This document shows positions 18,349 to 63,656 of a stretch of DNA of 64,000 nt, one piece after another. The stretch is from the NCBI GenBank assembly GCA_051362555.1, contig CM120649.1, positions 15,886,567-15,950,566 on the forward strand, given 5' to 3'. The DNA is from Lingula anatina (taxonomy: Eukaryota; Animalia; Brachiopoda). The position numbers and the translations under genes were made by a program. The notes beneath the pieces were generated by a model, which did not search any database, was not told the origin of the DNA, and saw only the letters and a list, made by a program, of their open reading frames with translations. Numbering within the stretch: the stretch's first letter is position 1; every line of letters begins with the position of its first letter.

Positions 18349-18514
18349 GACATCATACCAAAAGTTATCCAGCCGCAAGTGTCGGGCATGGTATATGGCA
18401 TCGTTGGAGCATGCATCGTTGTTGTCATTTTGATAGCTCTCGCCATCTGGTGCATACGTCGCAAGACCCAGCAGGGGGAGCTTAAGGTAGAGGAAGTGGA
18501 AGAGGAAGACGAAG
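18349..18514 (+). CDS. Transmembrane-domain exon (DIIPKVIQPQVSG-MVYGIVGACIVVVILIALAIWCI-RRKTQQGELKVEEVEEEDE)
   Basis: Acceptor tttcattctag|, donor GAAG|gtaaag, phase 0-1. A 23-aa hydrophobic helix is followed by RRK (positive-inside rule, type-I topology). Confidence 0.9.
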
Positions 18515-18550
18515 GTAAAGATAGTAGTGAGTTAGCTTTGCGTTGACAAT

Positions 18551-18795
18551 GGGACCATTCCCAGACCCTATCGTACTAACTGTGGATCGATCTATCTCCA
18601 AGGGGATTCCTGCTAAATTGCAATCAACTTAAGCATCTTAGGTGTCTGTCATGCCTAATGAAGCTGCTAGGGGGTAATTAATTAGTTAGTAGGCATGCTA
18701 GACAACTAGGCCGTTTAAGCTAAAAGCAATTTAGCGAGAAACCTCTTGGAGATGAGTCGATACTATTAGACCGATCTAGGTATGGGAACCCAGTC
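18551..18795. mobile_element. Hairpin MITE, family A, copy 2
   Basis: Aligns end-to-end with 1937-2196 (gggaccattcccag...ctaggtatgggaa). Confidence 0.8.
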
Positions 18796-18810
18796 AAACA
18801 ATTCAGTATA

Positions 18811-19005
18811 GGCTCTATTTACAAGCAGTTGATCTCTGGACTAACTAGTCTGTGGATCAAATATGGCCTGCACTGGACAATGAATTCCCACCTCCCACGT
18901 GTGACATTCTAGCAGGGGCAGAGCAATGAAATCTTTCAAGTTGGCCACGCTACGTTTGATCCGCGGGATAGTTAATTGGCGTATAAGCTGGTTGTGAACA
19001 CAGCC
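18811..19005. mobile_element. Hairpin MITE, family B
   Basis: TIRs ggctctatttacaagcagtt / agctggttgtgaacacagcc (15/20 complementary), an inner inverted repeat ggatcaaa/tttgatcc, and TA-containing flanks. Confidence 0.65.
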
Positions 19006-19025
19006 ATAGTCACAGTCGTCACTAT

Positions 19026-19276
19026 GAGCGCATTCAGAATGTTCAGCAGACTAACAGATCCGCAGATCAAACATGGCCGACCCACTTGTATGCTTTTTGC
19101 ATAATCCCTGCGGGGAATCCATTCAGTGTCTAATCGGGAATTAAGCAGCAAGTTTTATAGTGGGTCGCCATATTTGATCTGCAAATCTATTAGTCCACTA
19201 TTCTGAATGTGCTCTATAGTGGGTCACCATATTTGATCTGCAAATCTATTAGTCCACTATTCTGAATGTGCTCTAT
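19026..19276. mobile_element. Hairpin MITE (B-related) with a 59-bp tandem duplication of its right end
   Basis: TIRs gagcgcattcagaat / attctgaatgtgctc (14/15). 19156-19214 is repeated almost exactly at 19215-19273. Confidence 0.75.
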
Positions 19277-20699
19277 CATTGTCATCATTTTGGTAATATT
19301 TATTTGTTTGATTTTGTATAAATACCATCATTAATAATGACTTTTTTTTTTTTTTTTGTCAATTTTTGTCAGAAAAAGAATGCATGTCTATGTATATGAA
19401 AATTCATGATGGCATGGAAAATTGACAGCACTAGTTCAATAACCTTCTCGACTGGAAAGCATCCGACGTAATTCTGCAAGATATTGTTTGCGGGTTTATC
19501 CCTTTTACTCAGGTGAACACTTGATGCTGTAATGACATGAGACAGACTGAAACATCATTTCCTGTTTTTCATCTACTACAAGTATAGATGCAGTTATTAG
19601 TGGCTAGAAGAATACAGGCAATTTGCAGCAGGGTTTCAGAACATAACCAGTATCCTGTTTTTCAAACGCTGATAAGATATTGGGTACAAAAAGCACAAGA
19701 ATGAAATTAAATGAGAAAAAGAGAAAAAAGACGAAGTTGAGAAAAAATACATTTCCTTTGAATGGCCCCATTTGACATGATGGCCACTGAAAAGTTTCCA
19801 GCTCAGCAATAAGACCACCTGATCCACCTAGCCCACCCAAATTTATCCCTCTTCAGAGGCTCACTCATACTGTGACTATGTAACAAGAGTTGATGACTGA
19901 ACAATTTGACCATATATGGTCAAATTGTTCAGAATAAAAATTAATAATTTGTCTTGTCTGAAAATTTATCATGTTCAAATTGTAGCATTCAAAGATAGGA
20001 AGAAGAGTCTGACAGTTTCACAAAGCATCTCGAGTCAAAAGGCTGGTCTAAACTTTAACCCCCCCCCCCCAAAAAAAAAAAAAAGGTCTTTCTTATTCAG
20101 TATAATGAGCTAAATTCATAGTAATCTAACTCAATAAAGCAACTGATAGTCTGAAACAATCATGTATTTTTTGTTATAAAACATGTGCAGTGTTTCATTT
20201 ATTGGACTAGTCTACAACTGATTTATCTTGGGACAAAGTAGAATAGACATATTTTGGTCTGATCTGTTAAGTCTAATTTCCAGGCTAAAACTAGTTTGGG
20301 AAACTGGCCCCATTAGTGCCATTCTTCAACTAAACAAATCTTTCAAAAAGCCACCTTAAGAGCACACATGCAATTATGACTTTTATCATGAAATTGTTGC
20401 ACAAAACTAAATAGGTTTTGAGTGCGAGTGTGTGAGCTTTCTGATCAGAGGGCTGAATCCCACGTTGACGATCACGACAGTGTAATAAATCACACATTGA
20501 TTGATTAGCTTCACTGTGTGTGAGAGGGGAATGTGAATTGCTTCATTTTTAGCGCCATAATGCTGGTAATTAATGGTAATGAACTGCCTGTCTGTTCCAG
20601 CAAGAAGCGAGCTGGCTGATGATTAGTTTTGGTGATTTGGAGGCATGTTATAATGTAAACTACCTGTTATGATTGAATTTAAGGTGGCATAGCTGTACA

Positions 20700-60566: not shown

Positions 60567-60914
60567 GTAAACTGGGTCATCCAAGGTCAAGATGGATATT
60601 TTTATTCATCTTTTTTTAAGTACAATGTAACCAAATTAAAGAAGATTTCATACAGTTTGGCAGTTTGTAATTTTGCGACTTGTAATTTTGCATATTAGTG
60701 AAATCATGAAGTTTGTTGTTGAATTATGAATCTAATTCTGCCTAGTTTATGTCGTAAGTTTATTTTGGCTTCCATTTAATACACACTGAAAAGCCTCAAA
60801 AAGAGAAAAAAAATCAATTTGTAATTTATTGCTTGAAAAATATAAATATATGATTAATAAATGATTACAGACAGTTTATAACTGTACATATGAAATATCT
60901 GGATCCATTTTCAG

Positions 60915-60986
60915 TTTGCGTACATTGTACAAAGACTGGGTACGAAGTGAGACCTTGTGGAAGGGGAATGAACAGAAAGTGTGTCT
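60915..60986 (+). CDS. Second TNFR-like Cys-rich exon (V)CVHCTKTGYEVRPCGRGMNRKCV
   Basis: Acceptor cattttcag|, donor CT|gtgagt, phase 1-1. Nearly the same four-Cys spacing as the previous exon. Confidence 0.88.
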
Positions 60987-62131
60987 GTGAGTACCATTTG
61001 CATGTTCAGACATTTAATTATAGTATCCCTGGCTGACAATAGATTGCGCTAGTGATGAAGAGCATGTGGAATGGAGTGTTGTAGACAACCAGCAGGTGTC
61101 ACTGGTGTTGCATGTTGTTTATGTGTAGTGTCGGTGTTTGTCAGTAGATGGAGCAGTGGTGAATTGTGGAAGAATGTCTTGTTTTGTTTCATCAACAGAG
61201 GTCTCTGCATTTCACCAATGATGAAATATTAAACAGAAAAAAGATGGAAAATATTTTAAAAAAATTCAAAAGTTTATTATTTATTATCTTTTAACATATT
61301 GGAAAGATATCCTAGCTTTGGGTTTTCAAAAATATTCTGAATTGGGTCAAAAGATGTGGCATTCCATCATGCAGAAACCTCTTGTGAAGTCCTTTTGCTG
61401 TCAGTTTTTGTCATAGATTTTTATCCCCAGTGAAATCCAAGTTCTTTTATTACATGTATATCTTCTGTCTTCATTTAAGTTTTCTCATTTTTATTTGACT
61501 GAGTTTTCTAATATTAAAAGCCATGATTTTATTAATTTACAAACTGTATTAGGAGATTATTATTTTGTATCTATTTATATATTTATTTTTGTTTATAACA
61601 AATACCTTTCTATCTGAAAATGTATATCTTTTATGATTGATTATTGATTTTTACCCTGTGACAATTTCAACATTTTGTTGTTCTTACTTGTTGTTTTCAG
61701 TTGAATTGTGATTTCATTTTATTTGTGAATTCCTTTTCTAGCTTTTTTGATCTGTTGCTAATACTACAACTTATCCACTGGCATTATTTTTAACCCATTG
61801 ATGTACATAGCATTTTGTCATTTGTTGCTCTAACATTTTCATGACTAAAGTCATATTTCTGGCCCATATCTTTTATTCTTTGTTCATTTGATTCTTATAA
61901 GCTCTGTTCTGAAAACTTCAACTTTTGTACTAGCTGTCATATCACTATATTATTATTTGCCACAATATCAATCTCAATAACTCTCCTGTTCAATTCAACT
62001 CATCGGCGATCACAATGGTTTGATCACGTTTTATTTGTCCTGAAAATAATTGCATTCATTCAACTGTTTGTTGTTAACTTATTGCACTCTTAAGATGCTT
62101 CACTATCAGTGTTGTGTGTAACATTGCTGCA

Positions 62132-62156
62132 TTGTTGTTGTTGTTGTTGTTGTTGT
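62132..62156. repeat. (TTG)n microsatellite
   Basis: Perfect trinucleotide run. Confidence 0.85.
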
Positions 62157-63169
62157 GGCTTTTTGATGTGGTGTTTAAGGTTGTCATGTTAGTACTGCTT
62201 GATGCATGCCATGTACGTGAATGCTGTGTTGAAAATAACCGTATTAGAGCTTGTAATTGTTCCCTTCACTAACATGCAGATATGAATATTAACTTATTAA
62301 GCTAAGCTTATAGCCCACTGCTTAGAAAAATATTTACAGCACTGGAAAGCTCTTGCTACAAGTAGTTGTGCACCAAATTATAGCCTCTGTCAAATATATA
62401 CGCTTTTTGTACTTTGTCATCCTTTTAACATACTGTATAATGTTGCTTCTGTCACTGCTGAATCAATGCAAGTTGTAGTAATTTAGTCATATGTTAATTG
62501 TAAATGTCTGCTTAGAAATGCTGTATTGTCCGACTGACCCTCAGATAAGCTCAGTTTCAGCAGGGAAGACTTTATCTTCCATGTTTCACTTTTAATGGAG
62601 GTCACTTTCTAGCTGTCACTTTAAGGTTGCCATCATGGGCTTAAGATTTTGGAGCTATGTTTTCTCATTATTTATTTTTATTTGTTAATATATTTAGGAG
62701 AGGGGGCAGTTTGCACTGTCCATAACAGATTTTTTACAAAATTGTAACTTTATCAGGCAAATGATTTTATTTATCAACTTTTACAAAAATTTTTTACATC
62801 TTTTTAAAATCTTTTTTAGATTACTTTTTTGTTTTCAAATTTGTTTTTTCACTCAGATAAATATAGAATCATTTTTTCCCATAGAATGTAGAATATTTTG
62901 ACTGGGTCCATGATGGCTGCTGTCTGTATGTGTTGGTAGTAAATAGAGTGTAAAATTGAGAAGGTGACCTTCAATTAATGCATTTCATTTTCATGGCCCA
63001 TATGTATTCCTTAATACCCAGCACTGAGTGCCAAAGGAAATAATGGGCATACCATGGATTTAAATTGTATCTTAGAAGTTGTGTTTATTTAAATTTTTCA
63101 TACGATAAAGGGGACTTTGTTTGGAAACTAGAAAATTAAAAATTGATCTTAGAGTTAAACCAATTTCAT

Positions 63170-63229
63170 TTTATTTATTTATTTATTTATTTATTTATTT
63201 ATTTATTTATTTATTTATTTATTTATTTA
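63170..63229. repeat. (ATTT)n microsatellite (another at 466-496)
   Basis: Perfect tetranucleotide run. Confidence 0.9.
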
Positions 63230-63596
63230 TATTTGAGGGGGGTGCTCTCTGAAGCACATTTTGGCAATAATGCAGTTTGTAATTCGTAGGTAATTTGCAA
63301 AATTGATTCACATCACCACTTTTTTTTAAATATAACTTATTAACAAACATTAATTCAGTTTGAAAAGAAAATTTGACCAAAGCATCCCTTTTAATCCCTG
63401 GTATGCATCTCAAATTTTAAAAAAGTCATGAACACCATTTTGCAAAAAAAGATTCGGAGATTTTCTTTCCGAGAGGTATTTCCTAGAAATATTACCAGGG
63501 GATATATGTGGGCCATTCTTGCAATACGACTCTTCATTCTCTGGACAGTACAGTTGATAAAAGTGACACATGGTGTGTTTGTGTTGTGAATTGCAG

Positions 63597-63656
63597 CCGT
63601 CTCCAACCCCTTAGGTACGCCGCCATCTGATGGCCGAGTATTTGTGGAGGCGAACA
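63597..63656 (+). CDS. Exon (S)VSNPLGTPPSDGRVFVEAN; the gene continues beyond the window
   Basis: Acceptor ttgcag|, donor ACA|gtaagt, 60 nt, phase 1-1. Confidence 0.8.

What the first reader, a model, noticed from the sequence alone, without database searches (positions are those of the whole stretch)
18349..63656. One reading frame with two ectodomains: TM - long cytoplasmic loop - internal signal peptide - EGF/cbEGF/TNFR module (polyprotein or fused genes)
Seen: phase-consistent exons run from a type-I TM helix with an RRK stop-transfer through ~730-750 aa with no stop, into KTA-MLTFSVLTVLSLVYG/SC, and on to disulfide-type EGF, cbEGF and TNFR-like exons. The second hydrophobic stretch is short (~12-15 aa), begins at a Met in good context (acagccATG, 45014) and ends in V-x-G, fitting the (-3,-1) signal-peptidase rule. 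Known: EGF and TNFR repeats need the secretory pathway; internal cleavable signals are typical of viral polyproteins and rare in cellular genes. Inference: (a) a two-pass hairpin receptor, (b) a cellular polyprotein cut by signal peptidase into a receptor plus a second protein, or (c) two ancestral genes fused in frame, with the second still independently initiated.
Basis: partly seen in the sequence, partly recalled or inferred. Interest (0 to 1): 0.8.

Follow-up and report, generated by a model that had tools for sequence, protein, structure and literature searches.

The report
Animal receptor with buried export signal
An invertebrate gene has an expressed reading frame in which about 670 residues of likely cytoplasmic protein run into a short signal-peptide-like stretch that likely continues into EGF- and TNFR-like modules; it likely starts further upstream at a membrane anchor, so the cell would probably cut one chain into two proteins, as is known for mammalian IGSF1.

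Summary
The sequence observation holds: 11 GT-AG exons (18349-63656) chain in phase into 994 codons without a stop, with 731 residues between the first membrane helix and Met 45014. RNA reads from three runs of a diverged population show exons 42604-43863 and 44273-45119 spliced together (12 reads), no read-through to the 43981 stop, and no depth step at Met 45014. Of 37 shown differences upstream of that Met, 25 are synonymous, so the loop is translated and the EGF half is not mainly a separate gene. The second hydrophobic stretch resembles a signal peptide (13-residue core, two -3/-1 sites) more than a stable helix. Not shown by RNA: the joints 18514-25468-38951-42604 and 45119-51398; these rest on phase and held-out codon scores. 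No orthologue was found. Best reading (0.45): an IGSF1-like cellular polyprotein cut by signal peptidase. Rivals: uncleaved two-pass hairpin (0.25); first helix in a separate gene (0.15). New here: the loop carries four copies of a C-x3-L-C-D-G-[IT]-H motif, like half a CDGSH iron-sulfur site. New variant of a known, very rare kind.

The parts
2862..3017 (+). Candidate upstream exon (52 codons, phase 0-0), likely end of the first ectodomain; fold unresolved
   Evidence: Acceptor score 9.5; codon score reached by 2 of 40770 intronic windows. No Pfam hit. Weak SRPBCC-like lead in the Atlas, 0.90 with 133 of 256 features shared. No RNA test.
18349..18514 (+). TM1 exon: strong hydrophobic helix followed by RRK and an acidic stretch (type I orientation inferred)
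   Evidence: Best 19-residue hydropathy 3.18; codon score reached by 0 of 40716 intronic windows. No RNA test.
25468..25526 (+). Loop exon, phase 1 to 0, strong donor
   Evidence: Acceptor 6.6, donor 8.4; 0 of 41364 intronic windows reach its codon score. No RNA test.
38951..39025 (+). Loop exon, phase 0-0, only one frame open, no Met
   Evidence: 6 of 41256 intronic windows reach its codon score. No RNA test.
42604..43863 (+). Large loop exon (420 codons, Ser/Pro/Glu-rich) with three C-x3-L-C-D-G-I-H motifs at 42817, 43333 and 43810
   Evidence: Covered by reads in X7, X8, X9 and spliced to 44273; motifs.
44273..45119 (+). Large exon: end of the loop, fourth motif at 44846, the signal-like stretch, and 20 further codons; ends in phase 1
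   Evidence: Continuous read depth and 12 joint reads from 43863.
45014..45064 (+). Internal signal-peptide-like stretch: Met, 13-residue hydrophobic core, predicted cut after Gly (45058) or after Cys (45064)
   Evidence: The two read differences shown inside it (45034, 45037) are synonymous. Cleavage is inferred, not tested.
51398..51490 (+). Cys-free lumenal linker exon with an N-glycosylation sequon, phase 1-1
   Evidence: 17 reads at 51483 and 16 joint reads to 57071 in X7. No family hit of note.
57071..57223 (+). Six-cysteine module, EGF-like by spacing only, phase 1-1
   Evidence: RNA. cEGF E 0.56, EphA2 E 9.1; model pLDDT 74 with no significant fold match.
59903..60025 (+). Calcium-binding EGF module, phase 1-1
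   Evidence: Pfam EGF_CA E 1.7e-10, above cut-off; 32 solved-structure hits, NELL2 best.
60492..60566 (+). TNFR-like four-cysteine module 1, phase 1-1
   Evidence: TNFR_c6 E 4.7e-6, below cut-off; TNFRSF21 E 5.6e-4; 11-13 reads in X7.
60915..60986 (+). TNFR-like four-cysteine module 2, phase 1-1
   Evidence: TNFR_c6 E 0.023; 13 reads at 60919 in X7.
63597..63656 (+). Candidate next exon, phase 1-1; the gene runs on beyond the window
   Evidence: Phase match, weak acceptor (-0.2); some depth in bin 63344-64000.

Best explanation
One gene encodes a long chain that is likely a cellular polyprotein: a likely type I membrane protein with a cytoplasmic tail of about 730 residues, then an internal signal that would restart translocation and would be cut by signal peptidase, releasing an EGF/cbEGF/TNFR-like protein into the secretory pathway. 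Shown: the last 667 loop codons and the signal-like stretch are one spliced frame under purifying selection, and the downstream exons are expressed at similar depth. Inferred: the link to the first helix (exon phase and codon scores), the 45119-51398 joint, the topology (positive-inside rule; disulfide modules must be lumenal), and the cut after Gly782 or Cys784 of the model. The likely origin is in-frame fusion of two neighbouring genes, the second keeping its old start Met and signal peptide. The first product would keep a membrane-tethered tail whose four Cys/His motifs may bind metal in pairs (untested).
For: Joint 43863-44273 in X7 (6 reads), X8 (2), X9 (4), none in X3; zero depth over 43890-44161 in 4 of 4 runs. 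25 of 37 shown differences upstream of the Met are synonymous against 0.285 expected, p 9.5e-7; 3 of 3 listed indels keep the frame. No depth step at the Met: 13.3-22.0 summed over three runs in the five bins before it, 19.2 in the bin holding it. The frame is coding upstream of any Met of exon 42604 (0 of 40842 intronic windows reach its score) and in Met-free exon 38951, so translation must enter from a phase-0 exon further up; 25468-25526 is the best candidate and needs a phase-1 partner, which the TM exon is. The second stretch is marginal as a helix (crude insertion energy +1.9 for 19 residues against -4.8 for TM1, recalled scale) and has a short core with -3/-1 sites 15 and 17 residues from the Met; short h-regions fit signal peptidase (PMC11579918, passages). 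It opens with a Met and is followed by a phase-1 intron and 1-1 modules, the usual layout of a secreted protein's first coding exon (own knowledge). Precedent: IGSF1 (PMC5841168, PMC9162367).
Against: No RNA test of 18514-25468, 25526-38951 or 39025-42604, and 45119-51398 was not among the joints shown. Possible earlier ends exist: read-through of 25526 to a stop at about 25650 (codon score reached by 99 of 40968 windows) and an acceptor at 25830 followed by a stop, with a GGTCA/TGACC cluster like that of the large exons behind it. In yeast, long n-regions reduce cleavage, and signal anchors with cleavage motifs often stay uncut (PMC11579918); here the n-region would be about 730 residues. Cys784 is the odd one of 21 downstream cysteines and would stay unpaired after a cut at Gly782; it suits a disulfide-linked uncleaved anchor equally well. 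The informative reads come from animals about 6% diverged (130 differing places in X7); a paralogue is not strictly excluded. No orthologue was found, so conservation between species is untested.
Confidence: 0.45

Rival explanations
1. Same single gene, but the second stretch is an uncleaved signal anchor: a two-pass hairpin receptor with both ends outside and a 730-residue cytoplasmic loop, perhaps dimerised through Cys784.
For: All linkage evidence applies equally. The uncharged run is 19 residues, just long enough to span a membrane. Long n-regions disfavour cleavage in yeast (PMC11579918). A Lys sits three residues before the Met; in corin a cytoplasmic basic residue blocks signal peptidase (PMC11756421, passages). 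One unpaired cysteine lies at the lumenal edge.
Against: The core is only 13 residues with two Thr and two Ser; crude insertion energy is positive for 17 residues or more. Two good -3/-1 sites follow directly.
Confidence: 0.25
2. The TM exon belongs to a separate upstream type I gene that ends near 25650 or 25870. The loop, signal-like stretch and EGF/TNFR exons form another gene with a cytoplasmic N-terminus of about 700 residues and one internal signal (type II anchor or cleaved).
For: No RNA for the upstream joints. Candidate last exons exist after 25468. A possible ATG-led phase-0 exon lies at 32200-32259 (score 11.9). The 25526-38951 intron would be 13.4 kb.
Against: The 25526 donor scores 8.4, the highest among the 45 listed candidates, and all three upstream joints match in phase. 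The alternative last exon at 25830 has no coding signal (4717 of 41472 windows reach it), and 32209-32259 is weaker than 25468-25526 (43 of 41400 against 0 of 41364). Short isoforms could coexist with the long one.
Confidence: 0.15
3. The 44273-45119 exon is not spliced to 51398; the EGF/TNFR exons have another 5' end and the hydrophobic stretch is a C-terminal anchor of the loop protein (stop at 45140).
For: The 45119-51398 joint was not shown in either lay (52 joints and 42 loose ends were not displayed).
Against: No other expressed non-repeat exon lies between 45120 and 51397; the 45246-45290 peak is a dispersed repeat, and most depth in bin 45114-45249 is accounted for by it. Phases match (1-1), depths are alike, and the EGF exons have no other signal peptide in the window.
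Confidence: 0.08
4. Two fused genes, with the main product made from an internal promoter and Met 45014 as an ordinary secreted or type I protein; the long form is minor.
For: A Met with a purine at -3 opens a complete 15-residue signal peptide. Mouse Igsf1 has such an internal-promoter isoform (PMC9162367).
Against: No depth step and no start place near 45014 in X7, X8, X9; the upstream codons of the same exon are under purifying selection. Other tissues were not sampled.
Confidence: 0.07

Closest known systems
Mammalian IGSF1 (PMC5841168: passages and section 4 read; PMC9162367: passages read)
   Same: Ectodomain, first helix, second hydrophobic segment acting as an internal signal peptide cut by signal peptidase, then a second ectodomain; proposed to arise by in-frame joining of two gene copies, the second keeping its ancestral signal peptide.
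   Different: IGSF1 has 12 Ig loops in two homologous halves and is eutherian. Here the second half is EGF/cbEGF/TNFR-like, no Ig domain or internal duplication was seen, and the stretch between the two hydrophobic segments is about 730 residues with a repeated Cys/His motif. Cleavage is shown for IGSF1, only inferred here.
Viral glycoprotein polyproteins, e.g. bunyavirus Gn/Gc precursors (PMC4974537, PMC7926653; search listing and abstract starts only)
   Same: Type I protein, cytoplasmic tail, internal signal, second ectodomain, processed from one precursor (mechanism from own knowledge).
   Different: This is a spliced host gene with large introns; viral tails are far shorter (recalled); no sequence relation was seen.
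CDGSH (NEET/CISD) 2Fe-2S motif, C-X-C-X2-(S/T)-X3-P-X-C-D-G-(S/A/T)-H (PMC5859297, passages)
   Same: The C-D-G-x-H end; copy 4 reads C-D-G-T-H as in the consensus.
   Different: Each copy has two Cys and one His, not three Cys and one His; the spacing is C-x4-C, the Pro is missing, three of four copies have Ile; no Pfam match.
TNF receptor superfamily and cbEGF proteins (TNFRSF21, NELL2, fibrillin)
   Same: Module-level similarity only.
   Different: None of the listed hits has this order of modules behind an internal signal; the two Daphnia fibrillins found match by EGF repeats alone.

Membership tests
IGSF1-type cellular polyprotein (works like) | Internal hydrophobic segment in one open frame with a long translated upstream part | tested here: met
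   667 codons upstream are spliced in frame and under purifying selection.
IGSF1-type cellular polyprotein (works like) | Upstream type I helix on the same transcript | tested here: inconclusive
   Phase and held-out codon scores support it; no reads were laid on those joints.
IGSF1-type cellular polyprotein (works like) | Second ectodomain on the same transcript behind the internal segment | tested here: inconclusive
   Downstream exons are expressed at similar depth and 51490-57071 is shown, but 45119-51398 was not displayed.
IGSF1-type cellular polyprotein (works like) | Signal-peptide anatomy: short h-region, small residues at -3/-1, no Pro at +1 | tested here: met
   13-residue core; sites V-Y-G and G-S-C, 15 and 17 residues from the Met. 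Simple rules only; no trained predictor was available.
IGSF1-type cellular polyprotein (works like) | Co-translational cleavage by signal peptidase | not testable with these tools
   Needs protein work.
IGSF1 family (membership) | Ig loops in both halves; mammalian leukocyte-receptor-cluster relatives | tested here: not met
   The second ectodomain exons match EGF_CA and TNFR_c6, none an Ig family, among 10 exons scanned.
CDGSH iron-sulfur domain | Three Cys and one His in the published consensus spacing | tested here: not met
   4 of 4 copies have two Cys with C-x4-C spacing; 0 of 4 copies match a Pfam family at E up to 5.
CDGSH iron-sulfur domain | Binds a 2Fe-2S cluster | not testable with these tools
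   Needs spectroscopy or metal analysis.
Calcium-binding EGF domain | Pfam EGF_CA above the curated cut-off | tested here: met
   41.4 bits against 27 for 59905-60024.
TNFR cysteine-rich domain | Pfam TNFR_c6 above the curated cut-off | tested here: inconclusive
   27.3 and 15.6 bits against 29.4, each exon scanned alone and covering profile positions 18-39.
SRPBCC/START fold (exon 2862-3017) | Helix-grip fold | tested here: inconclusive
   Atlas score 0.90 with 133 shared features, under the 170 typical of family members; model pTM 0.22, best Z 2.0.

The most novel reading that the evidence does not exclude
A second, independently evolved animal polyprotein split by signal peptidase at an internal signal, beside IGSF1: one mRNA yields a type I receptor whose 730-residue tail carries four copies of an undescribed Cys/Cys/His metal-binding motif, and a separate EGF/cbEGF/TNFR-like protein, showing that signal peptidase can cut a signal that sits behind hundreds of cytoplasmic residues.
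Probability: 0.4. Interest if true: 0.75.

Novelty: new variant of a known kind. Interest (0 to 1): 0.55.

Why it matters
The authors of PMC9162367 (2022) wrote that they knew no other cellular protein processed through an internal signal peptide. A second animal case with different modules would show that in-frame fusion of neighbouring secretory genes is a repeatable route to new genes and a way to fix the ratio of a receptor and a partner. It would also test the model that long n-regions keep signals out of signal peptidase (PMC11579918), here with about 730 residues. If uncleaved, a receptor with two ectodomains around one long loop is still an unusual layout. The repeated Cys/His motif is a testable candidate for a new metal site.

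Tried and rejected
Orthologue searches found nothing usable, which is weak evidence because only single exons could be queried: exon 44273-45118, 0 of 7257 candidates; exon 2862-3017, 0 of 4; two-exon EGF profile, 2 of 14, both Daphnia fibrillins; motif profile, 0 hits among 1.84 billion representatives and 0 in solved structures; Atlas, no usable hit for residues 180-282 of exon 44273; metagenome contigs, 0 of 403 stretches and 1 of 47, an 11-residue chance match in a GC-rich bacterial-looking contig, rejected; viral contigs, 0 of 13. No whole genome is held. The run search listed no RNA holder; nine runs came by species label. The first lay was swamped by the repeat at 47239-50450. I first read the 45255 peak as an alternative first exon; the loose ends show a dispersed repeat. 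Initiation at Met 42748 with a non-coding 5' part was rejected because the 48 codons before it score as coding in a held-out test, although the three differences shown there are all non-synonymous. Folding of two single exons gave no significant match. A recalled resemblance of the Cys-free region behind the signal to BRICHOS/OAF-type strands, and of exon 2862-3017 to a juxtamembrane SEA-like domain, got no support from any call (18, 46, 53, 63). Rfam: no match. Paper searches for an invertebrate or two-ectodomain precedent listed IGSF1 and viral precursors as the relevant cases; two searches returned nothing; the library lacks most subscription papers. Earlier scan notes: none near this place or like exon 42604. 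No complex prediction was run.

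
Full report
Setting. The window is AT-rich animal DNA (30-42% GC per 2 kb) with large introns and many repeats. No whole genome is held. That it is an invertebrate is my inference from composition, repeat types and the lack of close hits; I did not identify the species.

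Checking the observation. I read the whole window and built the exon chain by coordinate. Eleven exons from 18349 to 63656 have AG/GT ends, match in phase at 10 of 10 joints and give 994 codons without a stop. The first helix is strongly hydrophobic and followed by RRK; 731 residues later comes Met 45014 and the second hydrophobic stretch. The loop is rich in Ser, Pro, Glu, Gly and Asp and has three N-glycosylation sequons in 728 residues, about what its composition gives by my rough estimate. The second stretch is not a chance product of that composition: 0 of 5000 shuffles reach both its hydropathy and its uncharged run. Downstream, exon 59903-60025 is a calcium-binding EGF above the Pfam cut-off; the two four-cysteine exons are TNFR-like below it; exon 57071-57223 has six cysteines but no significant family or fold match. 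All six exons after 45119 are phase 1-1.

RNA evidence. Nine RNA runs were offered by species label; I laid seven of them in two calls. The first lay (44001-64000; X1, X2, X4, X7) was dominated by a repeat, and of 67 joints only 15 were shown; one was genic, 51490-57071, with 16 reads in X7 and none in the other three runs. The second lay (42530-46600; X3, X7, X8, X9) showed continuous depth over 42604-43863 and 44273-45119 in X7, X8 and X9, one joint, 43863-44273 (6, 2 and 4 reads; 0 in X3), zero depth over 43890-44161, and no place where many molecules begin or end. Summed depth does not step up at the Met. The peak at 45246-45290 is a dispersed repeat. The 45119-51398 joint was not displayed; I infer it because no other expressed non-repeat exon lies between, and depths are alike on both sides (about 7-17 reads). 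Caveats: depth is low; X7-X9 come from one study; their reads are about 6% diverged, so a retained, more diverged intron could be missed at the 90% threshold.

Selection. The divergence gives a natural test. I classed the 40 differences shown of 140, and the 6 of 40 shown rows (620 in all) that fall in modelled exons, dropping 34 rows in repeats or introns. 34 of 46 are synonymous against 23-28% expected; upstream of the Met it is 25 of 37 (p 9.5e-7); the two inside the signal-like stretch and all six in the downstream exons are synonymous. The 3 listed indels are multiples of three. So the 667 codons before the Met are translated in frame with it, and they are not a 5' untranslated region.

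The upstream link. An exon scan with recalled splice weights and a codon model trained on downstream exons ranked 25468-25526 (phase 1 to 0) and 38951-39025 (0-0) first between the TM exon and 42604. In a held-out test, the 48 codons of exon 42604 before its first Met, exon 25468 and the TM exon score above all of about 41,000 intronic windows each, and exon 38951 above all but 6. Exon 38951 has no Met and one open frame. Translation must therefore enter from a phase-0 donor further upstream; 25526 is the best one and its exon needs a phase-1 partner, which 18514 provides. Against this, possible last exons follow 25468, and an ATG-led exon at 32200 is possible. I put the link at about 0.85. 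The first ectodomain is represented only by candidate exon 2862-3017, whose fold is unresolved.

Signal or anchor. With a recalled biological hydrophobicity scale and no position term, the best 19 residues give -4.8 for the first helix and +1.9 for the second stretch, whose 13-residue core gives -0.8. Two -3/-1 sites follow, after Gly782 and after Cys784; the second would remove the one unpaired cysteine of 21. PMC11579918 (passages) says that short h-regions fit signal peptidase, but also that long n-regions reduce cleavage and that anchors with cleavage motifs can stay uncut; PMC11756421 (passages) shows a cytoplasmic basic residue blocking cleavage of corin. I put cleavage at about 0.6 given linkage. 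The Met at the start of the core and the phase-1 intron 20 codons after the predicted cut fit an ancestral first exon of a secreted protein (own knowledge), which favours origin by gene fusion.

Extra feature. The loop carries four copies of C-x3-L-C-D-G-[IT]-H, spaced 159-209 residues apart. They share the end of the CDGSH 2Fe-2S consensus (PMC5859297, passages) but lack one cysteine and the spacing, and match no Pfam family, so this is not a CDGSH member. Metal binding by pairs of motifs is a guess.

Comparison. The closest system is IGSF1, cut co-translationally at a second hydrophobic segment that serves as internal signal peptide (PMC5841168, passages and section 4), proposed to stem from tandem duplication, with a mouse isoform started from an internal promoter; its authors knew no other cellular case (PMC9162367, passages). 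This gene would work like IGSF1 but is not a member: no Ig loops, unlike halves, far longer loop. Four paper searches listed no invertebrate case; the library is incomplete and I read no supplements. Earlier scan notes hold 19 findings with these words; the 8 shown are bacterial fusions, unchecked AI notes that I count as leads only.

Limits. No orthologue was found in seven sequence searches with single exons or small profiles, so conservation between species, and whether relatives keep the halves as two genes, is untested. The gene runs off both ends of the window, so the fate of the second half (secreted or anchored) is unknown.

Verdict. Observation confirmed; interpretation partly supported. 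Polyprotein cut by signal peptidase 0.45, uncleaved hairpin 0.25, separate TM gene 0.15, no 45119-51398 joint 0.08, mainly independent initiation 0.07. New variant of a known and very rare kind; interest 0.55.

Noticed in passing
window 42817, 43333, 43810, 44846: Four copies of C-x3-L-C-D-G-[IT]-H-[ST], mostly in acidic surroundings, the only matches in six frames of the window; they hold 8 of the loop's 9 cysteines. No family or homologue found.
   Followed up: partly
window 42604-43863, 44273-45118 and 25501-26000: GGTCA/TGACC occurs 22 times in the two large exons against 7.4 in synonymous-codon shuffles (0 of 2000 reach it), about 10 per kb against 1.3-1.9 elsewhere; a similar cluster follows exon 25468. 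It may be a nucleotide-level signal of long exons. A paper search gave nothing relevant among 15 listed of 200.
   Followed up: partly
window 47239-50450: A 3.2-kb interspersed element with 13.8 copies of a 146-bp unit, covered up to about 1100-fold by RNA reads, mostly one strand, probably from many copies. It resembles non-autonomous Helentron-type elements with internal arrays (PMC7492417, listing only); not tested.
   Followed up: partly
window 39414-42111 and 54656-55852: Tandem duplication of a 1.37-kb element at 88% identity, with related pieces at 54656-55852.
   Followed up: partly
window 43864-44130: Read-through of the 43863 donor gives a hydrophobic tail, a stop at 43981 and AATAAA at 44054 and 44124. 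No depth in 4 of 4 runs and a poor codon score (-29), so probably intronic.
   Followed up: yes
window 25527-25652 and 25830-25871: Two possible alternative last exons after 25468 that would give a short-tailed type I isoform. No RNA test.
   Followed up: partly
window 32209-32259, 35786-35800, 8219-8296: Possible optional exons. The first two keep the frame; the third is phase 1-1 and does not fit the 0-0 chain.
   Followed up: no
window 60372: 13 reads in X7 cover an intronic site before the first TNFR-like exon; repeat, retained intron or unmodelled exon not resolved.
   Followed up: no
window 54087-54395 (+) and 3851-4228 (-): Open frames of 102 and 125 codons inside introns, probably mobile-element remnants; no Pfam match.
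   Followed up: partly
runs X7, X8, X9 against the window: These runs share the species label but differ at about 6% of coding sites, mostly fixed, while the few X3 reads match the window; X7 also differs from X1, X2, X4 in repeat copies. The few exonic X3 reads lie first-mate-plus, opposite to the few X1/X2 reads on 44001-45334; unexplained.
   Followed up: no
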